A DNA stretch of 37,783 nt from a virus (taxonomy: Duplodnaviria > Heunggongvirae > Uroviricota > Caudoviricetes), in IMG/VR virus record IMGVR_UViG_3300029190_000005. One strand, 5' to 3'. The notes under the pieces were generated by a model that saw only the letters and a list, made by a program, of their open reading frames with translations, made no database searches and was not told where the DNA came from. The position numbers and the translations under genes were made by a program. Position 1 is the first letter of the stretch, and each line of letters begins with the position of its first letter. Positions 5,427 to 16,417 of this stretch are shown piece by piece.

Positions 5427-6011
5427 TTATTGTTTGTTTTTTTCGTTCTGGTTGATGACAAATTCAATGTAACTTTCGATCTTTGCTTTCTCGGTTTCGG
5501 GTAACAATGCGTAGCGCGAGCGATCATAGTTGATGGTCGCAGGGTCGTGCGGGTGAATCAGTAATTCATAGCCGTGACGCCCGAATGCGGATGCAACATT
5601 CTCCAGGGTGGAAATGGAAACGCTGACCTCATTGTTTAACAGGCGGCTGATTGTCACCTGGGCTACGCCGGATGCGCGGTGAAGTTTTCCCTGTGTTGAA
5701 AGGTCGCGGCTTTCGCTCATCCAGCGTTCCAGGTTGTGAGCCGCCAGCTGGCCAATGTCGCTTGGGCCGACAGGCTGAAAACCTTCCTGAGAAAGCGAGC
5801 GATCGATATCAAGCCAGTTACGGGGTTTATTGGCGGCAGCTTCAATTTTTCGCGCAACCTGATCGCCGATAACCTTCTTACCAAGAGCCCAGCGGTTTAC
5901 CAGATTTGCCTGAGTTCCAAGTTTTTCAGCCATCCGCGTCTGAACACCATTGAATTCACGGTCGATCAAGTCGTTGAGATTTTGCCTGCGGACGTCCTGG
6001 ATACTTTTCAT
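5427..6011 (-). CDS. Prophage repressor (CI-like position), HTH protein without recognisable S24 peptidase domain
   Basis: 194 aa. N-terminal HTH-like segment (RMAEKLGTQANLVNRWALGKKVIGDQVARKIE) and a second HTH-like segment (LHRASGVAQVTISRLLNNE); no Ala-Gly cleavage site or Ser/Lys dyad seen; divergent from the Cro-like gene across an operator cluster. Confidence 0.75.
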   Translation of the reverse strand: MKSIQDVRRQNLNDLIDREFNGVQTRMAEKLGTQANLVNRWALGKKVIGDQVARKIEAAANKPRNWLDIDRSLSQEGFQPVGPSDIGQLAAHNLERWMSESRDLSTQGKLHRASGVAQVTISRLLNNEVSVSISTLENVASAFGRHGYELLIHPHDPATINYDRSRYALLPETEKAKIESYIEFVINQNEKNKQ

Positions 6012-6762: not shown

Positions 6763-7578
6763 ATGAGCAGACATGCAACAGATTGGGCCTGGGAGACAGA
6801 TCCAGGTAGCTCATCATTAAAGCTCATACTGCTCTCGATGGCTGACAGAGCCGATGAATATAACCTCTGCTACCCCAGCATAGAACGCCTCGTTAAAGAC
6901 ACTTGCCTGAATAAAAAAACCGTGCAGGCCGGGCTTATATCGCTCATGAAAATGGGGCTTATTTCAGATACCGGAGAGAGAAAGGGAGCGACAAAAAGAG
7001 TGCGGGTTTTCTCTCTTAATATAACCAAAAACGGGAACATTAAAGGCAACCGGGAGGGGGGCAATGAACCCGAAAACGGTAATGTTACCGAAAACGGGAA
7101 TATACCCAAAAACGGGATGTTGAATGATCCCAAAAACGGGATGTTGAATGATCCCAAAAACGGGATCCAGAACCAGTCATATAACCAGTCATTTAACCAA
7201 GAGAGGGAGAGCAGGACAAAAAGCGGGGATTCTGTGCCTCATGACCCCGGAGCAAACAACGCCGTGATGAATAACTTTGTTCCTCCTGGTGGGCCAGGGC
7301 AATTAGGCAAATTTGTCATGCATGAACAATGGCAGCCATCAGATGACTTTCTTCGGAAAAGCTCATTGCAGGGGATCTACCTGGACAGTCTGCCAACGGC
7401 ACAGGAACTTGCAGAGTTCAGAATTTACTGGATGGCTGAGGGTAAGGCATACCATCAGGCACAGTGGGAGCAGAAGCTGGCAAGGCGGCTGCAGATTAGC
7501 AGACAGAAGCAATCAACATTACCTGATAACAACGTTCCGCACTGGAACAGCCCTGAAGCATGGGAGGATTTCTTGTGA
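6763..7578 (+). CDS. Replication initiator (lambda O-like) with internal iterons
   Basis: 271 aa; the N-terminal HTH-like region followed by a repeat-encoded low-complexity linker (PKNGMLNDPKNGMLNDPKNG) is the typical O-like architecture. Confidence 0.75.
   Translation: MSRHATDWAWETDPGSSSLKLILLSMADRADEYNLCYPSIERLVKDTCLNKKTVQAGLISLMKMGLISDTGERKGATKRVRVFSLNITKNGNIKGNREGGNEPENGNVTENGNIPKNGMLNDPKNGMLNDPKNGIQNQSYNQSFNQERESRTKSGDSVPHDPGANNAVMNNFVPPGGPGQLGKFVMHEQWQPSDDFLRKSSLQGIYLDSLPTAQELAEFRIYWMAEGKAYHQAQWEQKLARRLQISRQKQSTLPDNNVPHWNSPEAWEDFL
7024..7174 (+). repeat. Iteron array (putative replication origin) inside the O-like gene
   Basis: About six direct repeats with core (C)CAAAAACGG(G/T)A; two adjacent 24-bp units CCCAAAAACGGGATGTTGAATGAT are identical (7105-7128 and 7129-7152). 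Confidence 0.7.
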
Positions 7579-8360
7579 ACAACGTTTTTACCGCGATACA
7601 AAACCGTGACGGAGAAGCCCTTTCTCGCATGTCAGGTTATGAGCATCAGTACGTCAACAATGACAATGTGGTGAACATGTCAGCAGAGAGGCTTGTTGAT
7701 GCCCTTTTTAAACAGCTGAAACAACTGTTTCCGGCGGCAGTGGTAACCAACCTGAAGACGCCAGAGCAGGAAGTTGCTGCAAAACAGCAGTGGATTGCTG
7801 CGTTTGCCGAAGGGGGGATCCGAACCCGTGAACAGGTTTCTGCTGGTATGCGCCACGCCCGCGCCAGTGAATCTCCGTTCTGGCCGTCTCCAGGGCAATT
7901 TATCAAGTGGTGCAAAGACAGCAAGATGGTTCTTGGCGTCACCATTGACGATGTGATGGCGGAGTTTCACCGGTACAGCAAGGAAAAAAGTTTATATCCT
8001 GGTGGTCCCGAAAGATTCCCGTGGCGACATCCGGTTATGTACTGGGTCGTATGTGATACCCGCCGTGCAATGTATCAGCGCCAGCTTAGCGAGATTGAGG
8101 TTGAGAAACACGCACGCAGGCTGCTCGATGATTGGGCGAAAAAGGTGGCTTCCGGACAGCAGATACCCGATCCGGTGATCAGCATACAGGCAAAGCCAGA
8201 GCCCATGAGTACGCCTCCGGACACAGGGAGAGACGTTTACCATCCACCAGGGCGAAGTTTCGGGTGCATGCCTAACGCCGCCACCCTTGGGGGAATAACA
8301 CCGGCGCAGTGGCTGATGGAGGAATACAGGCGGGGAAAGGCGGCAGGATTTATCAAGTAA
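7575..8360 (+). CDS. Replication protein P-like (helicase loader)
   Basis: Segment AAKQQWIAAFAEGGIRTREQVSAGMRHARASESPFWPSPGQFIKWCKD aligns by eye with lambda P as I recall it; GTG at 7575 is preceded by GGAGGA and overlaps the O-like stop. Confidence 0.8.
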   Translation: MNNVFTAIQNRDGEALSRMSGYEHQYVNNDNVVNMSAERLVDALFKQLKQLFPAAVVTNLKTPEQEVAAKQQWIAAFAEGGIRTREQVSAGMRHARASESPFWPSPGQFIKWCKDSKMVLGVTIDDVMAEFHRYSKEKSLYPGGPERFPWRHPVMYWVVCDTRRAMYQRQLSEIEVEKHARRLLDDWAKKVASGQQIPDPVISIQAKPEPMSTPPDTGRDVYHPPGRSFGCMPNAATLGGITPAQWLMEEYRRGKAAGFIK

Positions 8361-8397
8361 TACCAGCGCGATAGCGCATTTTTTTACGTCTATATGA

Positions 8398-8412
8398 TTA
8401 CCTGGAAGGTAA
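8398..8412. promoter_or_regulatory. Operator-like palindrome TTACCTGGAAGGTAA
   Basis: Perfect TTACC-N5-GGTAA in the intergenic region after the P-like gene. Confidence 0.55.
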
Positions 8413-8459
8413 TAAAATGTTCTAATCTCTATTGATTTCATGTCTTATGTGGTTTTTAA

Positions 8460-8474
8460 TTACCTAAGGGGTAA
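8460..8474. promoter_or_regulatory. Operator-like palindrome TTACCTAAGGGGTAA overlapping an RBS
   Basis: Perfect site; centre 62 bp from the 8398-8412 site; overlaps the SD (AAGGGG) of the gene starting at 8478. Confidence 0.55.
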
Positions 8475-8477
8475 ATC

Positions 8478-8825
8478 ATGAGAAAACAGATACAGGCTCT
8501 TGGTCGACTCAAAACAGGCCAGATGAACAAAACAGAATCTGCGTATTGCCAGCACCTTGAGCTGCGTAAACGTGCAGGGGAAATCGCCTGGTATCGATTC
8601 GAGGGTATCAAGCTGCGGTTAGCTAATAACACGTTCTATACGCCCGATTTCGCTGTGATGCTCGCCACCGGCGAGATGGAGCTGCACGAAGTGAAAGGGG
8701 GATTCTGGACCGATGACGCCAGAGTGAAAACCAAAGTCGCCGCAGATCAGTATCCGTTCCGAATCATCGGGGTAACGGTTAAACCAAAGAAAGCAGGTGG
8801 TGGCTGGAACATCGAAGAGTTCTGA
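8478..8825 (+). CDS. DUF1064-like phage protein (nin-region type)
   Basis: 115 aa; motifs (AWYRFEGIKLRLANNTFYTPDFAV...HEVKGGFWTDDARVKTKVAADQYP) resemble the DUF1064 family from memory. Confidence 0.5.
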   Translation: MRKQIQALGRLKTGQMNKTESAYCQHLELRKRAGEIAWYRFEGIKLRLANNTFYTPDFAVMLATGEMELHEVKGGFWTDDARVKTKVAADQYPFRIIGVTVKPKKAGGGWNIEEF

Positions 8826-8886
8826 ATCGACGATCTATTTAGTTATCAATGTAATCAATAAGTTATGTGGATAAGCGAGGGTAAAG

Positions 8887-9366
8887 ATGGAAAGTAATAT
8901 CAAAGGGTTAGTTGCCGCCGGGCATGAGATGGCTTCGGAACTGAAAGCAGAATGTGGTGCCGTTGATATGCGCAGTGTGGCAAAGCTGATCAGCGATTTG
9001 GCAACGCAACTGGAAGTGCAACTGGTGCGTGCTAATGCGCTGGCGGCGGAGAGTGCGGCAATGCATGAAACTATTGAAGCCGTTCGGAGTGTTGCGGATA
9101 ACTCCAGTGGAATTGCCGGATGGCATTTGAATGGCGATATCGCTACATGGGAAGAGATTCTTCCTGAAATTAACGATATCGAAACTCCAGCCACCGATGC
9201 TTTCCTGGCTGAAGTACGTGCGCAGGCGTTTAATGACCTTTGCTCGGCGTTCGTTAAACACGCGAATCTCGCGGGAATGGATGATGGTGAGCTAGTGAGG
9301 CTTAAATATGCGACGGACGCCCTGCTGCATTGTGCGGAACAGCTTCGCAAAGGAGGCAACCAGTGA
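8887..9366 (+). CDS. Hypothetical phage protein
   Basis: 159-aa ORF with SD (GAGGGTAAAG) before the ATG; co-directional operon context. Confidence 0.5.
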   Translation: MESNIKGLVAAGHEMASELKAECGAVDMRSVAKLISDLATQLEVQLVRANALAAESAAMHETIEAVRSVADNSSGIAGWHLNGDIATWEEILPEINDIETPATDAFLAEVRAQAFNDLCSAFVKHANLAGMDDGELVRLKYATDALLHCAEQLRKGGNQ

Positions 9367-9908
9367 GTGTAACGGTTGAAAAGATTGATGTGTTGTCATT
9401 CGTTATAACCGGTGCAGAGAGACTAGATCCGGTTCGAGTGATGATTGAAAACTATGAACCTGGAAAGGGAAGAATCACCATCACCTGCTACGGAAAAGCG
9501 TGGACTGCGGCTTGGTTTGCTATGGGCGGTGATGATGTGCAGACGTTCATTAAGCGAGTCAGCAACGACTATCTAATCGACAATTTCGACCCTCAACTGC
9601 GAAGCACGGTCGACGATGACAACGATGCAAATCTGCTTTTCGTGAAGTCAGAAATCATAAAGTTACGAAGAGAGAGAGAAATCGACGCCGTACTGGCTCG
9701 CGAAATGTGGTACGAGGCGGAAAACGCCGATGACGTAAAAGAAAGCTGCTGCTGTTTCGGCGTCGGTAACAAACTACTGAATCTCTTTGGTGATGAGCCG
9801 TGGTATGCCAACTGGCCAACGATACCAAACCCGAAATACCAGTATCTGGAACGCGTACTTAATGCAGTGAGAGACGGTCTTAAGCAAATAGAGAAGGTGG
9901 AACCATGA
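9363..9908 (+). CDS. Hypothetical phage protein
   Basis: GTG at 9363 preceded by GGAGG; overlaps the previous stop. Confidence 0.5.
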   Translation: MSVTVEKIDVLSFVITGAERLDPVRVMIENYEPGKGRITITCYGKAWTAAWFAMGGDDVQTFIKRVSNDYLIDNFDPQLRSTVDDDNDANLLFVKSEIIKLRREREIDAVLAREMWYEAENADDVKESCCCFGVGNKLLNLFGDEPWYANWPTIPNPKYQYLERVLNAVRDGLKQIEKVEP

Positions 9909-10204
9909 CTGTATGTCTTATTGATAAACGTCGACGTGGGCAACAAATACCATCTGTTGAAATGCCGAATCACACATGGTTTTGCGTACTTGATATCGAT
10001 GGCATGGATAAGTTTGTTGACACTCGTCATTACTGCGATACCGCAACAGCTACTCCGGCGAAAGCAAAGAAAATGGCTGCTCTGATAGAAAACTGGACTC
10101 CACCTGATGGTTGGTGCAATGGGAATGATCGGGATTGGCATGAAAAAATGAAGGGCTATATCTGCGATTTTTTACGTAAATGCAACGGATTCAGGGTGAT
10201 GTGA
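9905..10204 (+). CDS. Hypothetical phage protein
   Basis: 99-aa ORF overlapping the previous stop (ATGA). Confidence 0.45.
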   Translation: MTVCLIDKRRRGQQIPSVEMPNHTWFCVLDIDGMDKFVDTRHYCDTATATPAKAKKMAALIENWTPPDGWCNGNDRDWHEKMKGYICDFLRKCNGFRVM

Positions 10205-10205
10205 C

Positions 10206-10970
10206 ATGAGCAAGATTGACTATCAGGCACTGCGTGCCAAGGCAGAAAAAGCAACGTGTGGTGTATGGTCGCTCGAATATGGAGAGAGCCGATTTGATGG
10301 TGATGATGCGCTAATTCATCGTGAAGTTGCTGGATATATTCCTATTTGCAGAATTGAAGGAGCGCATCCAGAAAGCGGTTTCGATGAAGATTTCCAAATG
10401 GAACAGCAGGCCAATGCTGAATTCATCGCCGCAGCCAGTCCATCTACCGTGCTGGCACTGCTGGATGAACGGGAAAGAAACCAGCAATACATCAAACACC
10501 GTGACCAGGAGAACGAGGATATTGCGCTAACGGTAGGGAAGCTGCGTGTTGAGCTTGAGGAAGCAAAATCAAAACTCAACGAGCAACGCGAGTATTACGA
10601 AGGTGTTATCTCGGATGGAAGTAAGCGTATTGCTGAACTGGAGAAAAGCGAAGAGCAACTCATTAACGAGCGTGACCATGCTGAGTCTGCTTTAGCTGAT
10701 ATGTATTTTGCAGCAACCGGGGATAGGCCTGAGTGGAGTAACTGGTTCGGTTTTTCAGATGCAGTAGATGCCGTAGTTGACAGAATTGCTGATTTAGAAG
10801 CTAAACAGCCATCGCCAGTAGTACCTGAAGGACTGATTAAAGCGGTGCGTTTTTATGAGCAGGTAAAACGTGAGAACCCGCCAGTCGAAACCGGAGCATG
10901 GAAAGACGCTGTTGACTGGGTGCTCAAAGAGGCTTGCCAGGCTGTAAACATTGGCATCAAAGGAGAGTGA
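10206..10970 (+). CDS. Ea22-like family protein
   Basis: N-terminus MSKIDYQALRAKAEKATCGVWSL... and the acidic coiled-coil middle resemble Ea22-like prophage proteins. Confidence 0.55.
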   Translation: MSKIDYQALRAKAEKATCGVWSLEYGESRFDGDDALIHREVAGYIPICRIEGAHPESGFDEDFQMEQQANAEFIAAASPSTVLALLDERERNQQYIKHRDQENEDIALTVGKLRVELEEAKSKLNEQREYYEGVISDGSKRIAELEKSEEQLINERDHAESALADMYFAATGDRPEWSNWFGFSDAVDAVVDRIADLEAKQPSPVVPEGLIKAVRFYEQVKRENPPVETGAWKDAVDWVLKEACQAVNIGIKGE

Positions 10971-10971
10971 T

Positions 10972-11487
10972 ATGGCGTTAACACACCGCGAACTCTGTCA
11001 GATTGCGTACAAGTTCCTTAAGCGCAACGGGTTCAAGGTTTGTTTTCATGACCGCTTTATAGCTGTAACCAGTACCGGAGAACAGCCAGATGCTATGGGA
11101 TTCAGAAATTCAGCATCATGCCTGATAGAGGCGAAGTGTTCTCGTGCTGACTTGTTGGCAGATAGAAAAAAGCGTTTTCGTAAAAATCCGTCTCTTGGAA
11201 TGGGCGACTGGCGATTCTTTATTAGTGAGCCAGGAATTATTTCAATTGAGGATTTACCACCTGGCTGGGGATTACTTCACGTTGTTAACGGAAGAGTACG
11301 GAAAGTACATGGGTGGCCCAAGGGTAATTGCTGTTGGGGTAATCCTGACGATAAGCCATTTACTGGAAATAAGCAGGTTGAATGCGATTACATGTTATCT
11401 GCATTAAGGCGCATGGAGTTGAGAGGGCACCTTAATGAAATATATGACGGTGTAATTGTTAATAAGAAAGAAGGAAACGCAGCATGA
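10972..11487 (+). CDS. Hypothetical protein, possible PD-(D/E)XK-type nuclease fold
   Basis: ATG at 10972 with AAGGAGAG upstream; candidate catalytic arrangement D (EQPDAMGF) ... E-x-K (LIEAKCS). Weak inference. Confidence 0.4.
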   Translation: MALTHRELCQIAYKFLKRNGFKVCFHDRFIAVTSTGEQPDAMGFRNSASCLIEAKCSRADLLADRKKRFRKNPSLGMGDWRFFISEPGIISIEDLPPGWGLLHVVNGRVRKVHGWPKGNCCWGNPDDKPFTGNKQVECDYMLSALRRMELRGHLNEIYDGVIVNKKEGNAA

Positions 11488-12413
11488 TCACTATTACCAA
11501 AGAACGCCTGCTGACAATCCAGCAGTGGCGCGAAACATACGGACCTGGTAGCAACGTTGTACTGCCAGCAGAAGAAGCGGAAGAACTGGCACGAATTGCT
11601 CTGGCATCGCTGGAGCAGAATGCACTATCTGGCAACTCTCGGCTTATTCCTGGTGAAGTGTTGTCCGCAATCCGGGAGGTTGCCAAGATTCGTGCCGATT
11701 TCGATGATTTTGACGGTGACAGGCGAGGTATCGGTGATTGTCTGGATGAGGCCGAGCAAGAGCTTATCGTTACCATTAACAAATATGCCAGTCAGTTGGC
11801 AGCAGAACCGATAGCGACTAATGACGTTCGAGAGCAGCAGACAGCCGTTCCGCCAGTTCCGGAAATACAGGATGATGTCGCGCAAGCAATTGAAAATCTC
11901 AAGCAGAAGTTAGTGGAATGCAATCGCTATAACTACTGCGCAGATGCAGTTAAAGGCGTAGAGGATGCCTGCCACGCTGCCATGCTTCATAGTGCCGAAC
12001 CTGCAAGTAATCATGAAGAGTTGCCGCTTGATTATCTCCAAGGTCAAAAAGATGGTCTTGAATGGGCTGCGCAGCTTGCAGAAGCAAATCACCCACAAAC
12101 TGGCGACTGGCTTTACGATGACCCGCTGGAGGTGGCTAAAGCTATCAGAAAAGGTCCTGACATGCCCGAATTCGATGGACCAACTCCGGCAACTCCGGAT
12201 GGTTGGATAAGCTGTAGTGAGCGAATGCCGAACGATAAACAGTATGTTTGGTGTTGGGGTAAGTCTTACGGCTGGACTGAGTGCGATACCTTCGAAGGGT
12301 ATTACGATTGGTCGAGAAACAAATGGTGGGCAGTTACTGACGATGGGGAAGAACCGGCATCGAAAGTAACCCACTGGATGCCGCTACCAGAACCGCCGCA
12401 GGAGGTGAAGTGA
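11484..12413 (+). CDS. DUF551-like domain protein
   Basis: C-terminus ...WISCSERMPNDKQYVWCW...HWMPLPEPP matches the DUF551 signature as I recall it. Confidence 0.55.
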   Translation: MITITKERLLTIQQWRETYGPGSNVVLPAEEAEELARIALASLEQNALSGNSRLIPGEVLSAIREVAKIRADFDDFDGDRRGIGDCLDEAEQELIVTINKYASQLAAEPIATNDVREQQTAVPPVPEIQDDVAQAIENLKQKLVECNRYNYCADAVKGVEDACHAAMLHSAEPASNHEELPLDYLQGQKDGLEWAAQLAEANHPQTGDWLYDDPLEVAKAIRKGPDMPEFDGPTPATPDGWISCSERMPNDKQYVWCWGKSYGWTECDTFEGYYDWSRNKWWAVTDDGEEPASKVTHWMPLPEPPQEVK

Positions 12414-12535
12414 TGAACAAGTGCAACGCTCTGCTTTATGCCATGGTGATTGGTTTCGGCCTGGTTGCTGGTATCCGGGTTTATATTACCTGGGAGTCAT
12501 TAATCAATCTGGCGTGGAGTGCGATTCGTGGCTAA
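12413..12535 (+). CDS. Small hydrophobic peptide (40 aa), putative membrane peptide
   Basis: My own translation: MNKCNALLYAMVIGFGLVAGIRVYITWESLINLAWSAIRG*; strong SD GGAGGTG about 6 nt upstream; overlaps the previous stop. Confidence 0.35.
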   Translation: MNKCNALLYAMVIGFGLVAGIRVYITWESLINLAWSAIRG

Positions 12536-12830
12536 ATCCCCCGCAGAACGCAAAGCCGCGCAGCGCGCTCGGCAGTCCGCCGCCGGTGAGCGCAAAATTG
12601 AACTGGTGCTGGATAAGCAGGAGCAGGAAATGCTGGCGCGGAACTGCGCCGCCCGGCGCCCTGGTCGCGATCCCTATGAAATGGCCGAGTACATCGCGCT
12701 GCTGATCCGCCAGGATGATGCACGTGTGCGCGGGCGTATAAAATCGATCAGCAGAAACTTTGCGGTAAGTGCGGCGAGAGAGTTCCCGTTAATTCATGCC
12801 CGTGTAATGGTGACTCGCAATGCTGGGTGA
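12528..12830 (+). CDS. Hypothetical basic protein, last gene before the terminase region
   Basis: GTG at 12528 with GGAG upstream; sequence AKSPAERKAAQRARQSAAGERKIELVLDKQEQEML...; locally GC-rich. Function unknown. Confidence 0.4.
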   Translation: MAKSPAERKAAQRARQSAAGERKIELVLDKQEQEMLARNCAARRPGRDPYEMAEYIALLIRQDDARVRGRIKSISRNFAVSAAREFPLIHARVMVTRNAG

Positions 12831-12914
12831 CTAAAGGCTGGCATGAAACGAAATTAATAGTGTGACATGTCACGAGTAGATTATGCATGATGAATTTGAT
12901 GGGTTTTGAATACT

Positions 12915-12940
12915 GCCGCCAACTATGGCGGCTTTATTTT
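12915..12940 (+). terminator. Rho-independent terminator just upstream of the terminase genes
   Basis: Hairpin GCCGCC (12915-12920) / GGCGGC (12927-12932) followed by TTTATTTT. Confidence 0.5.
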
Positions 12941-12951
12941 GCATGGTACTA

Positions 12952-12966
12952 TTACCACAACGGTAA
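12952..12966. promoter_or_regulatory. Operator-like palindrome TTACCACAACGGTAA before small terminase
   Basis: Perfect TTACC-N5-GGTAA, 9 nt before the proposed terS ATG. Confidence 0.55.
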
Positions 12967-12974
12967 CAATTACC

Positions 12975-13580
12975 ATGGTGGTTATGATGCCTGCTGAACC
13001 TAAAACCTATAAACGCAAATCAACGCAATTTAAGCCACTAACCGCAATGCAGGAGGCTTATTGCCAGTCATACATCAAAACGCCTGAAAACCAGACTCAG
13101 GCAGCGATTAACGCAGGATTCTCCCCAAATACAGCGGCAGTTAAAGCCAGTGTCATGATGCGCGATGAACGCATTCAAAAACGGATTGCCGAGTTGATGG
13201 AGGAGCGCAACAAACGAATGCGCGTCAGTGCCGATTACGTTCTCATGCGCCTGGTGGAGATCGACCAGATGGACGTGATTGATATCCTCAATGACGATGG
13301 GAGCCTTAAGCCAATCCGCGAGTGGCCGAAAATCTGGCGCACTACGCTTAGTGGCTTTGATCTGTCATCGACCATCATGAACATGAACGAGGATTCGATA
13401 GAGACAATTCTCAAAAAAATTAAATGGCCTGACAAGGTGAAGAACCTCGAACTGATTGGTAAGCACGTCGACGTCAATGCATTCAAAGAACGCCTGGATG
13501 TTAATGTGAATGTGACAATTGCTGATCGCATAGCGGCAGCCAGGAAGCGACTCAAAGAACGTCAGGATGGTAATCAGTGA
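12975..13580 (+). CDS. Terminase small subunit
   Basis: About 200 aa directly upstream of and overlapping the large terminase; basic N-terminus with HTH-like segment (TAMQEAYCQSYIKTPENQTQAAINAGFS). Exact start uncertain (ATG at 12975, 12984 or 12987). Confidence 0.65.
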   Translation: MVVMMPAEPKTYKRKSTQFKPLTAMQEAYCQSYIKTPENQTQAAINAGFSPNTAAVKASVMMRDERIQKRIAELMEERNKRMRVSADYVLMRLVEIDQMDVIDILNDDGSLKPIREWPKIWRTTLSGFDLSSTIMNMNEDSIETILKKIKWPDKVKNLELIGKHVDVNAFKERLDVNVNVTIADRIAAARKRLKERQDGNQ

Positions 13581-15046
13581 CAGATACAGCGTTATCTCCT
13601 GAAGAGCAGTTGATCGAGGATATTGCAGGGTTCACTCACGATCCGCTTGGCTATGCCCTCTATGCGTTCCCGTGGGGGGAAGAGGGGACTGAACTGGCAC
13701 ATGCTACCGGCCCACGTCAGTGGCAGGCTGATGCGTTCCGAGAGATACGTGATCACCTGCAGAATCCAGAGACGCGCTATCAGCCGCTTATGCTGGCACG
13801 CGCTTCTGGTCACGGTATTGGTAAATCCGCATTCATCTCAATGCTGATCAACTGGGGCATGTCCACTTGCGAGGATTGTAAGGTCGTGGTGACCGCCAAC
13901 ACCGACAACCAGCTACGAACGAAGACCTGGCCGGAAATTATCAAGTGGTCGAACCTTGCTATCACGAAAGACTGGTTTACCTGTACCGCTACTGCGATGT
14001 ACAGCAATGATCCTGGGCACGACAAGCGGTGGCGAGCTGACGCAATCCCCTGGTCTGAGCACAACACTGAGGCATTCGCCGGACTACACAACGAGCGCAA
14101 ACGCATCATCGTGGTATTCGATGAAGCGTCGAACATTGCGGATCTGGTGTGGGAAGTTGCTGAGGGTGCGCTTACGGACGAAGACACTGAGATTATCTGG
14201 GTGGCGTTCGGAAACCCTACACGTAATACCGGGCGTTTTCGCGAATGTTTCCGCAAATACAAACACCGCTGGAAAACTGCGCAGATTGACAGCCGGACGG
14301 TGGAAGGTACTAACAAACAGCAGTTGCAGAAATGGGTTGATGACTACGGGGAAGACAGCGACTTCGTTAAAATCCGTGTGCGCGGCATATTCCCTGATGC
14401 ATCTGAATTGCAGTTTATCCCTACCGGTCTTACTGATGAGGCAATGAAACGGGTGGTAACCGCTGCGCAGGTTGCACATGCTCCGGTGATAATCGGCGTT
14501 GACCCGGCATACTCCGGAGTTGATGACGCTGTGATATACCTGCGGCAGGGGCTGCACAGTAAGGTGCTGTGGACTGGCAACAAGACCACTGACGATCTGA
14601 TAATGGCGAAGCGTATCGCTGACTTTGAAGACCAGTACCAGGCTGACGCAGTGTTCATCGACTTCGGTTACGGAACTGGTCTGAAGTCAATCGGTGACGG
14701 CTGGGGTCGTACATGGCAACTTGTTCCGTTCGGTGGCGCGTCTACTGACCCGCAGATGCTCAACAAGCGTGGGGAGATGTTCAACTCATGCAAGACATGG
14801 CTGAGGCTGGGCGGGATGCTGGATGACCAGGAAACAGCAGACGACCTGTCGACGGCAGAGTACAAAGTTCGCGTGGACGGTAAAATCGTTATCGAACCGA
14901 AGGAAGATATCAAAGAGCGACTTGGGCGTTCGCCGGGTAAAGGTGATGCGCTGCTGCTAACGTTCGCCTTCCCGGTAGCCAAGAAAACTAATGACCCACG
15001 GCAGCAGCAGGGGAAAGCTATTACTGAGTACGATCCGTTTTCATAA
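13577..15046 (+). CDS. Terminase large subunit
   Basis: 489 aa; candidate Walker A GHGIGKS, ATPase motif VVFDEAS, and a C-terminal nuclease-like region with conserved acidic residues; GTG start overlaps the terS stop. Confidence 0.85.
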   Translation: MTDTALSPEEQLIEDIAGFTHDPLGYALYAFPWGEEGTELAHATGPRQWQADAFREIRDHLQNPETRYQPLMLARASGHGIGKSAFISMLINWGMSTCEDCKVVVTANTDNQLRTKTWPEIIKWSNLAITKDWFTCTATAMYSNDPGHDKRWRADAIPWSEHNTEAFAGLHNERKRIIVVFDEASNIADLVWEVAEGALTDEDTEIIWVAFGNPTRNTGRFRECFRKYKHRWKTAQIDSRTVEGTNKQQLQKWVDDYGEDSDFVKIRVRGIFPDASELQFIPTGLTDEAMKRVVTAAQVAHAPVIIGVDPAYSGVDDAVIYLRQGLHSKVLWTGNKTTDDLIMAKRIADFEDQYQADAVFIDFGYGTGLKSIGDGWGRTWQLVPFGGASTDPQMLNKRGEMFNSCKTWLRLGGMLDDQETADDLSTAEYKVRVDGKIVIEPKEDIKERLGRSPGKGDALLLTFAFPVAKKTNDPRQQQGKAITEYDPFS

Positions 15047-15050
15047 AGTT

Positions 15051-15656
15051 TTAAGCAGCATTGTCTGTGTTGCGATTGTTCCTTGAGTTAAACTTATTTG
15101 CAATTCTGGTATTGGATTTTATTTTTTCTTCTGCAAGTTCTTTTTCAAGCGCCATTATTTTTTCAATAAGGGAATCTCTTTCCTGCAAAAAAGAATTCAA
15201 AGACTCTTGGTGCTTGATTAAATCATTTTTATAGAATTGAATCTCAGACTCAAACTCAACCTTAACTCTGTCGTATGTAATGTCCCTTTGTGCCTCAAGC
15301 TTACGCAATTCTATGGCGTTTTTAACATCCCTGAGGCTTTTGTTGTGTTTGAAGTTATCGATGTTCTGTAGTGGAATTTTTTGAAACATCACCACTATAT
15401 TGTTAAACCATGGAACTATTACACACAGCGCGAATGCACATAAAGCTGGATATAAGAGTGAGTGGTACGCATCACTATGGGAAGATATATAATTTATTTT
15501 TTCTTCAATTCCTGACTTACTGAAGAATAAAAATAATAGTGGATTCCAGTTAAAAGAACACCACGAAAACACAAATGCCCCAAGTGCTGGGTTGCGGACT
15601 CTCTCTGACGCTGTGCTAATAGCCGATGATGCGATCTCTTTAAATTGCTCGAACAT
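15051..15656 (-). CDS. AT-rich moron: membrane protein with C-terminal coiled coil (unknown function)
   Basis: 201 aa on the opposite strand to the flanking late genes; markedly AT-rich; two hydrophobic segments (GAFVFSWCSFNWNPLLFLFF, LLYPALCAFALCVIVPWFNNIVVMF) then a charged heptad-like region; operator-like site just upstream. Confidence 0.55.
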   Translation of the reverse strand: MFEQFKEIASSAISTASERVRNPALGAFVFSWCSFNWNPLLFLFFSKSGIEEKINYISSHSDAYHSLLYPALCAFALCVIVPWFNNIVVMFQKIPLQNIDNFKHNKSLRDVKNAIELRKLEAQRDITYDRVKVEFESEIQFYKNDLIKHQESLNSFLQERDSLIEKIMALEKELAEEKIKSNTRIANKFNSRNNRNTDNAA

Positions 15657-15688
15657 GTCTAAACCAGATGTTAAATGTTTTTGTTATC

Positions 15689-15703
15689 TTACCTTCAAGG
15701 TAA
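15689..15703. promoter_or_regulatory. Operator-like palindrome TTACCTTCAAGGTAA upstream of the moron
   Basis: Perfect TTACC-N5-GGTAA, 33 nt upstream of the moron ATG. Confidence 0.55.
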
Positions 15704-15718
15704 CGTTCAGTCACCAGG

Positions 15719-15743
15719 CAAAAAAATGCCCGGCGAACCGGGC
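15719..15743 (-). terminator. Rho-independent terminator downstream of the tRNA
   Basis: Minus strand reads GCCCGG-TTCG-CCGGGC followed by ATTTTTTT. Confidence 0.55.
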
Positions 15744-15907
15744 GAACTGGAAGCAATGAGTTATGCCTTCCGTGGCTGTACTGGTTTACAGCATGAAGTC
15801 ATCGCAATGGCGTCCTGCTGTAAAAAGGGCGGTGATAGTCCTTCAAGGGAAACAGTCACCGCCAATCCCCTGGAACTTCTGGCATCACGGTCCTTAGGCG
15901 TGATTCT

Positions 15908-15983
15908 GGCGTGGCATGCAGGATTCGAACCTGCGACCAACCGCTTAGAAGGCGGTTGCTCTGTCCAACTGAGCTAATGCCAC
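15908..15983 (-). tRNA. tRNA-Arg (anticodon UCU)
   Basis: Minus-strand 76-nt sequence GTGGCATTAGCTCAGTTGGACAGAGCAACCGCCTTCTAAGCGGTTGGTCGCAGGTTCGAATCCTGCATGCCACGCCA folds by hand into a cloverleaf: 7-bp acceptor stem, D-arm GCTC/GAGC, anticodon stem ACCGC/GCGGT with loop CTTCTAA, T-arm GCAGG-TTCGAAT-CCTGC, encoded CCA. Confidence 0.85.
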
Positions 15984-16312
15984 AACGCTGAGAGCACTGG
16001 TTTGGCTCGATATCAGGTAGGGTGGAACAGCCCGCTAATATCCAATGCTCTCATCGTTGTACCCTCGTCTCTTCCGAGGCGTCACACCGAATCGCCGGGA
16101 TGGTGAATCCCCGTGCGCGGAATAAAACCGCTCGACTTGCACATTCCGGCTACCTGGTTCGTTTGCCCGAGCAAGGGAGGGTGCCCCTTAAACGTATCCA
16201 GACCGCTATCGTCGCATGTGCCATACGCCGTACTGCTCAAAATAAAAGCTCACTCCACCTGTTCAATTTAACGACAAGCCAGTCAGGTTAGTAACCGGAA
16301 TGAACTCTTTGG

Positions 16313-16327
16313 TTACCTTAAAGGTAA
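16313..16327. promoter_or_regulatory. Operator-like palindrome TTACCTTAAAGGTAA
   Basis: Perfect site between the tRNA leader region and the head-gene block. Confidence 0.55.
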
Positions 16328-16417
16328 TAATTCGTGCATTAAATGTCAACTGTCTACGATAAATAAATCATATGTGGTTAAATTGGTAATAATTTAATTG
16401 CGTACGGAGTCATTGAT

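What the first reader, a model, noticed from the sequence alone, without database searches (positions are those of the whole stretch)
15051..15983. AT-rich membrane/coiled-coil moron next to a phage tRNA between terminase and portal: candidate exclusion or defence gene
The 15051..15656 ORF is on the opposite strand to the whole late operon, is strongly AT-rich, has two hydrophobic segments followed by a charged coiled-coil tail, and has its own operator-like site and an upstream terminator separating it from the tRNA. A lysogen-expressed membrane protein at a known insertion hotspot is typical of superinfection-exclusion or abortive-infection genes. I do not recognise the sequence.
Basis: inference. 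Interest (0 to 1): 0.65.

Follow-up and report, generated by a model that had tools for sequence, protein, structure and literature searches.

The report
Fast-evolving membrane gene in prophage slot
The flagged ORF is a real accessory gene of an epsilon15/phiV10-like E. coli prophage; it encodes a small inner-membrane protein with a long helical tail, belongs to a large, completely uncharacterised and fast-evolving family, and carries the phage repressor's operator in its promoter, which makes it a reasonable but unproven candidate for a phage-versus-phage conflict gene.

Summary
ORF 15051..15656 (-) is an intact 201-aa gene. It has 36% GC, against 48% for the window, and lies tail-to-tail with terL. 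Upstream on the same strand lie tRNA-Arg(UCU) and a strong terminator.

The "operator-like site" is real. It matches the sequence that the epsilon15 RefSeq record annotates as repressor-binding sites (TTACC-N5-GGTAA). The window holds 16 copies against 0.67 expected.

The gene is not a one-off insertion. It belongs to a family with about 1,700 cluster representatives (PHROG 4780 and relatives) that has no Pfam, NCBIfam, PADLOC, PDB or BFVD match. In 51 of 80 IMG/VR loci a member sits in this same slot of epsilon15-like phages, mostly with the operator core conserved. Members also occur in lambdoid, siphoviral and filamentous phages, in one defence island, and alone in Bacteroidota chromosomes.

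The N-terminal membrane module is conserved (about 48% pairwise identity). The distal tail is hypervariable (about 20%). It is not a SieB homologue.

Function is inferred, not shown. The most likely role is a membrane-acting exclusion or abortive-infection protein. Because of the operator, expression in lysogens is uncertain.

The parts
15051..15656 (-). 201-aa ORF. Predicted parts: N-terminal helix (residues 2-19), hydrophobic helix 1 (23-45, kinked at the invariant N36/W37), short loop helix (50-60), and hydrophobic helix 2 running on into a long charged helix (63-200).
   Evidence: ORF list; AF2 model; hydropathy and charge distribution; PHROG 4780 at E=6.5e-52; 1,694 family representatives.
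15686..15714 (-). Inferred sigma-70 promoter of the ORF. The -35 is GTGACT (15714..15709), the spacer is 17 nt, and the -10 is TAAGAT (15691..15686).
   Evidence: Read from the sequence. It scores 8 of 12, below the scan threshold. The same layout is conserved in the Klebsiella homologue and in phage BUCT711, where the -10 is TATACT (alignment). This promoter is inferred, not shown.
15689..15703 (.). Repressor operator dyad TTACCTTCAAGGTAA. It lies in the promoter spacer and overlaps the -10.
   Evidence: 16 copies in the window against 0.67 expected. The sequence is identical in form to the sites annotated 'protein_bind: repressor' in the epsilon15 RefSeq record. The core TACC-N5-GGTA lies 42-50 nt upstream of the start codon in most slot alleles in IMG/VR.
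15720..15743 (-). Intrinsic terminator (GCCCGG-TTCG-CCGGGC followed by a T-run). It ends the tRNA transcript upstream of the ORF promoter.
   Evidence: Terminator scan. Conserved in relatives. The homologous stem-loop is annotated as a rho-independent terminator in epsilon15.
15907..15983 (-). tRNA-Arg(UCU), on the same strand as the ORF and antisense to the late genes.
   Evidence: ARAGORN; Rfam tRNA model at 73.3 bits. The same gene and orientation occur in phiV10 and BUCT711; it is absent from epsilon15.
16313..16356 (-). Promoter-like site TAGACA-18-AATTAT (16356..16327) facing the tRNA, abutting a second repressor dyad (16313..16327).
   Evidence: Promoter scan and dyad search. The homologous epsilon15 site at 2931-2947 is annotated as repressor-binding.
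14977..15719 (.). Replaceable cassette relative to phiV10, ZX5 and phiv142-3. It comprises the last ~70 nt of terL, the ORF, and the ORF's promoter/operator.
   Evidence: BLASTN homology to the relatives stops at 14976 and resumes at 15720.

Best explanation
The ORF encodes a small inner-membrane protein. Its predicted topology is N-in/C-in: an N-terminal cytoplasmic helix, a two-helix membrane hairpin with a short periplasmic loop, and a cytoplasmic helix of about 110 residues that is probably a coiled coil.

It is one allele of a large uncharacterised family that epsilon15/phiV10-like (Uetakevirus) phages carry tail-to-tail with terL. It is transcribed leftward from its own promoter, and the phage master repressor's operator overlaps that promoter.

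The most likely role is in phage-versus-phage conflict, as a superinfection-exclusion or abortive-infection type protein. In this model the conserved membrane module acts at the inner membrane, either blocking genome entry or permeabilising the membrane. The rapidly diversifying cytoplasmic tail would set specificity or oligomerisation.

Shown here: the gene, its anatomy, its regulatory sites, the family and its distribution. Inferred: the promoter, the topology, the timing of expression, and the whole function.
For: The slot and the gene behave as accessory.
- The gene is present, absent or replaced among close relatives.
- Only 25 of the 769 E. coli genomes that match the region carry this allele across at least 80% of the query.

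The gene looks foreign in composition.
- It has 36% GC, and 7 of its 10 Arg codons are AGA or AGG.

The family travels as cargo in unrelated mobile elements.
- Uetakevirus podophages of Escherichia, Klebsiella and Rahnella.
- The lambdoid phage KO-TP1 and a lambdoid prophage.
- A Chryseobacterium siphoprophage.
- Two kinds of Vibrio inovirus, confirmed by hhalign at 99.0% and 98.6% probability.
- A Pedobacter locus next to NACHT, GmrSD and HEPN genes.
- No partner gene is conserved across these contexts, so the protein appears to act alone.

The evolutionary pattern fits an arms race.
- Within the slot, TerL stays 73-100% identical while the family protein drops to 28-44% identity to the window allele.
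- Mean pairwise identity is about 48% in the membrane module and about 20% in the distal tail. Allele length ranges from 201 to 348 aa.

The gene is retained where the phage has decayed.
- Klebsiella loci whose only terL-related sequence is a 3' remnant, called there as a 191-aa gene, keep the gene intact. It is indexed in 37 blocks of the collection.

The architecture resembles known single-protein membrane Sie/Abi factors.
- Lambda SieB likewise lies reverse-oriented and tail-to-tail with the neighbouring N gene.
Against: - There is no homology to any known exclusion or defence protein. Pfam, NCBIfam and PADLOC give nothing beyond coiled-coil noise. hhalign against lambda SieB gives 0.85% probability. 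Foldseek against PDB and BFVD finds nothing at E<=0.001.
- The repressor operator overlaps the likely -10/spacer. The gene may therefore be silent in the lysogen, which does not suit a classical prophage-protects-host model.
- Many Bacteroidota members sit alone among housekeeping genes, outside any recognisable phage or defence island.
- The first hydrophobic helix is only borderline transmembrane, and coiled-coil periodicity was not significant in my simple test.
- No phenotype or expression data exist for any family member in the libraries and papers I could search.
Confidence: 0.4

Rival explanations
1. It is an accessory factor for the phage's own infection cycle, not an anti-phage factor. 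It would be made once the repressor is absent and would act at the host inner membrane. Possible roles are modulating the envelope, cell division or membrane energetics, or tuning the timing of development.
For: - The repressor operator overlaps the inferred core promoter. Its core is conserved 42-50 nt upstream of alleles that share only 28-44% protein identity with the window allele. This shows long-term wiring into the phage's own regulatory circuit.
- The gene has a stable position in the terL-portal slot in 51 of 80 IMG/VR loci.
- In a Chryseobacterium prophage a member sits in the head module in the same orientation as the late genes.
Against: - The gene is dispensable. Close relatives lack it or carry an unrelated gene in the slot.
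- The family also occurs in filamentous phages, lambdoid phages and phage-free chromosomal sites. A role specific to one phage type is therefore unlikely.
- A hypervariable tail is not what a housekeeping-type helper would be expected to show.
Confidence: 0.25
2. It is a counter-defence protein. It would be made early in infection and would neutralise a membrane-associated host or prophage defence. The variable tail would track diverse targets.
For: - The repressor-controlled promoter would give early expression on infection.
- The distal region diversifies rapidly.
- It is carried by several kinds of phage.
Against: - Members lie in a bacterial defence island and as solitary genes in Bacteroidota chromosomes.
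- The gene is retained in Klebsiella loci whose only terL-related sequence is a 3' remnant. A gene that only helps a phage infect would be expected to decay there.
- There is no similarity to any known anti-defence protein.
Confidence: 0.1
3. It is a lysogenic-conversion or host-fitness membrane protein, affecting stress tolerance, the envelope or colonisation, with no role in phage-phage conflict.
For: - Its regulatory layout matches that of proven conversion genes in this phage group. The epsilon15 gp22/gp21 operon and phiV10 oac each have a dyad about 40 nt upstream of a reverse-oriented gene.
- It is widespread in clinical E. coli and Klebsiella isolates.
Against: - The predicted topology exposes only about 18 residues to the periplasm, which leaves little surface for envelope chemistry.
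- There is no enzymatic domain.
- The hypervariable cytoplasmic tail is hard to explain by a host-physiology role.
Confidence: 0.12
4. It is a chance ORF or a decaying pseudogene.
For: Some database entries list only a 112-aa product.
Against: - The 112-aa entries are start-codon choices made on an intact full-length ORF. In the locus that gave one such entry, 709 of 710 nt are identical to the window.
- The first 90 residues are the best-conserved part of a family with 235 representatives at E<=1e-10.
- The full-length protein is recorded on at least 1000 contigs.
Confidence: 0.02

Closest known systems
SieB (lambda / P22 superinfection exclusion protein B, Pfam PF14163)
   Same: - Both are small prophage-encoded inner-membrane proteins with N-terminal hydrophobic helices and a cytoplasmic C-terminal part.
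- Both are reverse-oriented relative to their neighbours.
- In both, the stop codon abuts the stop codon of a convergent phage gene: lambda sieB with N, and this ORF with terL.
   Different: - There is no detectable sequence relationship. Lambda SieB hits PF14163 at 1e-29, whereas this protein does not hit it even at E<=10. hhalign between the family profile and SieB gives 0.85% probability.
- The genomic position differs (late region rather than the immunity region).
- The tail here is a single long helix rather than a compact domain.
Small membrane proteins that block phage DNA entry (P22 SieA, T4 Imm, HK97 gp15). This comparison rests on my own knowledge and was not tested here.
   Same: All are single small inner-membrane proteins encoded by phages as accessory genes, sometimes embedded in late or structural regions.
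   Different: - No sequences of these proteins were compared here, and none is picked up by the Pfam or PHROG annotation of this protein.
- This family has a long cytoplasmic helix that those proteins, as far as I recall, lack.
PHROG families 4780, 13369, 35327 and 22645 (all of unknown function)
   Same: These are direct sequence matches: E=6.5e-52, 2e-20, 2.6e-17 and 5e-06. Relatives from a Klebsiella phage, a Vibrio inovirus, a Chryseobacterium prophage and a lambdoid prophage hit the same families.
   Different: The window protein (201 aa) covers only the first ~199 of 275 profile positions of phrog_4780. It is the shortest intact allele I saw in this slot.
Lysogenic-conversion modules of the same phage group (epsilon15 gp22/gp21, phiV10 oac)
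   Same: Each is a reverse-oriented accessory gene with its own promoter and a repressor dyad about 40 nt upstream of the start codon.
   Different: Those genes encode O-antigen-modifying proteins with known activities. This protein has no enzymatic domain and only a short predicted periplasmic loop.
Phage_gp49_66 family (PF13876; phiV10 p03, ZX5, epsilon15 gp50)
   Same: It occupies the same slot in the same orientation in sister phages.
   Different: It is an unrelated, shorter (112-123 aa) protein that matches different PHROG families. No repressor dyad was found in front of it in phiV10 or epsilon15.

Membership tests
SieB (PF14163) | Significant match to the SieB profile, or profile-profile similarity to SieB. 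| tested here: not met
   Pfam scan at E<=10 gives no SieB hit. None of 56 family members hits it. hhalign between the family profile and lambda SieB gives 0.85% probability. The positive control works: lambda SieB hits PF14163 at 1e-29.
SieB (PF14163) | Aborts lytic growth of superinfecting phage when expressed from the prophage. | not testable with these tools
   Needs phage challenge experiments.
Known anti-phage defence systems (PADLOC-DB v2.0) | Significant match to a defence-protein model outside low-complexity or coiled-coil regions. | tested here: not met
   The only hit is CARF_HEPN at E=0.0014 over the helical tail. Family members hit only SMC-like coiled-coil models such as LmuB and JetC. 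The library dates from 2023, so newer systems are not covered.
PHROG 4780 and related PHROGs (uncharacterised phage protein family) | Significant full-length profile match. | tested here: met
   E=6.5e-52 over residues 1-197. The exhaustive profile search gives 1,694 representatives at E<=1e-3 and 235 at E<=1e-10. Nearly invariant R19, P23, G26, W32, N36, W37, S46, P70 and P82.
Regulon of the epsilon15-type repressor (Rep) | A copy of the operator dyad (A)TTACC-N5-GGTAA(T) at the gene's promoter. | tested here: met
   A perfect dyad lies at 15689..15703. Its sequence form is identical to the seven sites annotated as repressor-binding in NC_004775. The core is conserved in front of divergent alleles.
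Regulon of the epsilon15-type repressor (Rep) | Repressor binding to this site, and repression (or activation) of the promoter in the lysogen. | not testable with these tools
   Needs a gel-shift assay or ChIP, and transcript measurements with and without induction.
Moron (independently transcribed accessory gene in a prophage) | Own promoter and terminator, atypical composition, and presence/absence polymorphism among related phages. | tested here: inconclusive
   Atypical composition and polymorphism are met. A promoter is inferred and an upstream terminator is present. There is no terminator of its own downstream, since the stop abuts terL. It is also a long-standing slot resident rather than a recent insertion.
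Holin / spanin (lysis proteins) | Location in the lysis cassette and a match to holin or spanin families. | tested here: not met
   No Pfam or PHROG lysis annotation. The gene lies between terL and portal. In sister phages the holin/endolysin/spanin cassette lies elsewhere. The family also occurs in non-lytic inoviruses.

The most novel reading that the evidence does not exclude
This family may be a new, widespread class of single-protein, membrane-acting phage exclusion or abortive-infection factors. It comprises a conserved two-helix membrane module plus a hypervariable cytoplasmic helix, and has about 1,700 cluster representatives across Proteobacteria and Bacteroidota. Podo-, sipho- and filamentous phages would carry it as exchangeable cargo. 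In epsilon15-like phages it would be placed directly under the master repressor, so that exclusion is switched by the phage's own lysis-lysogeny circuit.
Probability: 0.3. Interest if true: 0.7.

Novelty: new variant of a known kind. Interest (0 to 1): 0.45.

Why it matters
If the family proves to be an exclusion or abortive-infection factor, it would add a large, unannotated protein family to the catalogue of phage-encoded immunity. None of the four libraries searched here (Pfam, NCBIfam, PADLOC 2023, PHROGs) assigns it a function. It is common in clinical E. coli and Klebsiella prophages, so it could affect phage-therapy host range. It would also be an example of an accessory gene wired to a phage master repressor through a dispersed operator. 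Even if that role is wrong, the family is a well-defined target: it is short, single-gene and easy to clone, it has natural allelic series in one genomic slot, and its conserved and variable halves are clearly separated.

Tried and rejected
- Word-based homologue search with the single protein found only close relatives. The exhaustive profile search was needed to see the family.
- Pfam, NCBIfam and PADLOC scans of the protein and of 56 relatives returned only coiled-coil noise.
- Foldseek of the AF2 model against PDB and BFVD found nothing at E<=0.001. The afdb50 library was unavailable.
- A second AF2 model, of a 317-aa Chryseobacterium prophage member, showed the same N-terminal module, a 180-residue helix and a small C-terminal beta/alpha domain. 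It also had no PDB match.
- A profile search against PDB sequences hit only coiled-coil proteins, and only over the tail.
- SieB homology was rejected by hhalign.
- I considered that the 112-aa database entries marked N-terminal truncation or an internal-start product like P22 Esc. The ORF is intact there, and Met89 is not conserved in the family.
- I considered that the adjacent tRNA-Arg(UCU) is specifically linked to the gene's AGA-rich coding. AGA codons occur throughout the phage (76 of 528 Arg codons), and the tRNA is conserved whatever occupies the slot.
- Literature searches found no characterised member. The DefensePredictor supplements contain neither the protein nor related accessions. 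The SPC32H repressor paper and the Brenes & Laub paper are not held.
- The first genome-contig scan found nothing because the search pattern was narrow. The second gave only 13 loci.

Full report
**What the window is.** The region is 100% identical to Escherichia phage EC.W1-9 and to prophages in about 25 complete E. coli genomes. Gene order and close relatives (phiV10, ZX5, phiv142-3, epsilon15) place it among the epsilon15-like podophages, genus Uetakevirus. terS and terL (to 15046) and portal (from 16639) are on the plus strand.

**Checking the observation.**
- ORF 15051..15656 (-) is intact, 201 aa, with an ATG start.
- It has 36.3% GC, against 48.0% for the window and 53-56% in the flanking late genes.
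- Its stop codon lies 4 nt from the terL stop, tail-to-tail.
- The tRNA-Arg(UCU) at 15907..15983 is on the minus strand, upstream of the ORF on the same strand.
- Between them is a strong intrinsic terminator: six G-C pairs, a TTCG loop and a T7 run, at 15743..15728.

**The operator.** A search for TTACC-N5-GGTAA with at most one mismatch finds 16 copies in the window, against 0.67 expected and never more than 4 in 100 shuffles. All lie in intergenic regions. Pairs flank the HTH_3 repressor gene 5427..6011 (-).

The epsilon15 RefSeq record annotates seven 'protein_bind: repressor' sites, and their sequences are exactly (A)TTACC-N5-GGTAA(T). phiV10, epsilon15 and Klebsiella phage BUCT711 each carry 13-15 copies. 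The site is therefore the master-repressor operator of this phage group, dispersed over most transcription units. That is an already annotated feature, not a new one.

**The promoter and what the operator implies.** Upstream of the ORF, the best sigma-70 reading is -35 GTGACT (15714..15709), a 17-nt spacer and -10 TAAGAT (15691..15686). The dyad fills the spacer and overlaps the -10. The same layout is kept in an 87%-identical Klebsiella copy and in BUCT711, where the -10 is TATACT and the protein is only 42% identical. This promoter is inferred.

A repressor bound there should block the promoter, which argues against constitutive expression in the lysogen. However, the epsilon15 conversion operon gp22/gp21 and phiV10 oac are known from the literature and the record notes to act in lysogens. 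Both have a dyad about 40 nt upstream of a reverse-oriented gene, with a -10-like hexamer overlapping one arm.

The strong lytic promoters tend to have paired dyads (5293/5355, 6067/6115, 8398/8460, 12952/12970). This gene has a single one. A secondary source states that this type of repressor binds DNA as a tetramer and only weakly as a dimer.

I therefore cannot tell whether the gene is on or off in the lysogen. No strong terminator separates the gene from terL, so late transcription probably runs antisense through it (inference).

**The protein.** AlphaFold2 with a 44-sequence alignment gives mean pLDDT 80.8. The predicted helices are 2-19, 23-45 (kinked at 36-37), 50-60, and one continuous helix 63-200.

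Hydropathy supports a firm membrane helix at about 66-91 and a weaker one at about 24-45. Across 56 relatives the net charge is +1.1 before helix 1, -0.5 in the loop and +2.0 after helix 2. This fits an N-in/C-in hairpin with about 18 residues in the periplasm.

The tail is charged and helical. Heptads are readable at about 150-180, and there are many weak matches to coiled-coil proteins. A simple periodicity test was not significant. I describe the tail as a probable coiled coil.

**The family.**
- Pfam, NCBIfam and PADLOC give nothing meaningful.
- PHROGs gives phrog_4780 (E=6.5e-52) and three related families, all of unknown function.
- An exhaustive profile search finds 1,694 representatives at E<=1e-3 and 235 at E<=1e-10. 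Typical lengths are 250-350 aa, and the match covers the first ~180 residues.
- In an alignment of 56 members, P70 is invariant and R19, P23, G26, W32, N36, W37, S46 and P82 are nearly invariant. The sequence beyond about residue 140 is unalignable.
- None of the members has a Pfam domain other than coiled-coil noise.
- A Bacteroidota branch adds a small C-terminal beta/alpha domain. Neither AF2 model has a PDB or BFVD neighbour.
- The family profile is unrelated to lambda SieB (hhalign 0.85%).

**Where the family lives.** The slot between terL and the tRNA varies between relatives. It is empty in phiv142-3 and holds a Phage_gp49_66-family gene in phiV10, ZX5 and epsilon15. Homology to those relatives breaks at 14976 and resumes at 15720, so the exchanged block includes the last ~70 nt of terL.

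The family is nonetheless the regular tenant of this slot.
- Of 80 IMG/VR loci encoding a relative, 51 have it convergent with a near-full-length Uetakevirus terL (73-100% identity). The stop codons abut or overlap in most of them (gaps of -25 to +26 nt). Most carry the dyad core 42-50 nt upstream of the start.
- Two GTDB genomes labelled Rahnella and Advenella (the latter a MAG) show the same arrangement.

Within the slot, alleles range from 201 to 348 aa. Mean pairwise identity is 49% over residues 1-22, 48% over the membrane module, 40% over the proximal helix and 20% over the distal part. The window allele is the shortest intact form seen in this slot.

Pieces of the slot have moved to other elements.
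- In Klebsiella loci next to xseA, which also hold large epsilon15-size genes including an SLT-domain one, the gene (89% identical) is intact. The only terL-related sequence there is a ~470-nt 3' remnant, called as a 191-aa gene.
- A lambdoid prophage carries a distant member next to a terL 3' fragment.

Other members are found in:
- the nin region of the lambdoid phage KO-TP1;
- the head module of a Chryseobacterium siphoprophage;
- the accessory regions of two Vibrio inoviruses, confirmed by hhalign at 99.0% and 98.6%;
- a Pedobacter locus beside NACHT, GmrSD and HEPN genes;
- solitary positions among housekeeping genes in several Bacteroidota.

No neighbour is conserved across these contexts, so the protein appears to work alone.

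**Interpretation.** A dispensable, compositionally foreign, single-gene membrane protein is carried by unrelated temperate and chronic phages. It is retained in Klebsiella loci where only a terL remnant is left. It combines a conserved membrane module with a hypervariable tail. I read it as most likely a conflict gene of the superinfection-exclusion or abortive-infection type, at confidence 0.4.

The proposed mechanism is inference. The membrane module would act at the inner membrane, and the tail would set specificity or assembly.

The main rival (0.25) is a helper for the phage's own cycle. The conserved repressor wiring and the stable slot support that reading. Dispensability and occurrence in very different phages and in phage-free loci weaken it. 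Counter-defence (0.1) and host-fitness conversion (0.12) are not excluded. A chance ORF or pseudogene is excluded.

The description is accurate. The functional guess is reasonable but untested. Two assumptions need correction. The gene is an old, diversifying resident of this slot rather than a recent insertion. Its operator ties it to the phage repressor, so lysogenic expression cannot be assumed.

**Novelty and interest.** The kind of thing is familiar: a prophage accessory membrane protein. The family itself is large, unannotated and unrelated to known exclusion or defence proteins. I rate it a new variant of a known kind, of moderate interest (0.45). It is a good, cheap experimental target.

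Noticed in passing
window 211, 5293, 5355, 6067, 6115, 6452, 8398, 8460, 12952, 12970, 15689, 16313, 33414, 34474, 34599, 35923: There are 16 copies of the dyad TTACC-N5-GGTAA against 0.67 expected, all in intergenic or promoter regions. They form close pairs (18-62 bp apart) at the early-left, early-right, middle and terS promoters, plus a looser pair 125 bp apart at 34474/34599. Single copies lie at int, this ORF, tRNA/portal, the Bro-N gene and the tailspike. The sequence matches the repressor sites annotated in the epsilon15 RefSeq record, so this is a known dispersed-operator system. The split between paired and single sites may reflect tetramer binding.
   Followed up: partly
window 15907..16356 (-): The phage tRNA-Arg(UCU) is transcribed antisense to the late operon. 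It appears to start from a promoter-like site (16356..16327) that abuts a repressor dyad (16313..16327). That gives a leader of about 340 nt, and about 160 nt of trailer containing an 18-nt inverted repeat (15785..15824) before the terminator. The arrangement is conserved in phiV10 and BUCT711. epsilon15 lacks the tRNA.
   Followed up: partly
window 15675..15977 (+): This plus-strand ORF is annotated as a hypothetical protein in EC.W1-9, phiV10 (p04) and ZX5. It overlaps the tRNA gene on the opposite strand and is probably a spurious gene call.
   Followed up: no
window 14977..15046 (terL 3' end): The last ~70 nt (about 23 codons) of terL are not homologous to the terL of phiV10, ZX5 or phiv142-3. 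They travel with the accessory-gene cassette. terL 3' fragments also accompany family members that have moved into other elements (L007-L010, L011).
   Followed up: partly
L007-L010 (Klebsiella spp.), locus positions 7898-9090: These Klebsiella loci next to xseA also hold large epsilon15-size genes, including an SLT-domain one. They keep an intact 89%-identical copy of the gene with its promoter, operator and terminator. The only terL-related sequence there is a ~470-nt 3' remnant, called as a 191-aa gene. The protein is indexed in 37 blocks of the collection.
   Followed up: partly
window 31455..32306 (+): A second strongly AT-rich ORF (283 aa, 37% GC, 5 of 10 Arg codons AGA) lies directly after the last large structural gene. 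It has no Pfam hit and is another candidate accessory gene.
   Followed up: no
window 15390..15392 (Met89 of the ORF): Many public annotations (one 112-aa entry is recorded on 805 contigs) start the gene at an internal Met preceded by GTGGTG. This drops the whole membrane module, although the full ORF is intact. Such entries hide the family's defining domain.
   Followed up: yes
L015 (Pedobacter), locus 7430-14691: A family member lies in a same-strand run with two unannotated genes (184 aa and 323 aa), a NACHT NTPase, a GmrSD_N protein and a HEPN_RiboL-PSP protein. This looks like a defence island. It is the only such context among the loci examined.
   Followed up: no
P0165 / A6 (Bacteroidota branch of the family): The longer Bacteroidota members end in a small, confidently modelled beta-sheet plus helix domain (residues about 246-316, pLDDT about 88-90). 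It follows a helix of about 180 residues, has no PDB match, and is absent from the window allele.
   Followed up: partly
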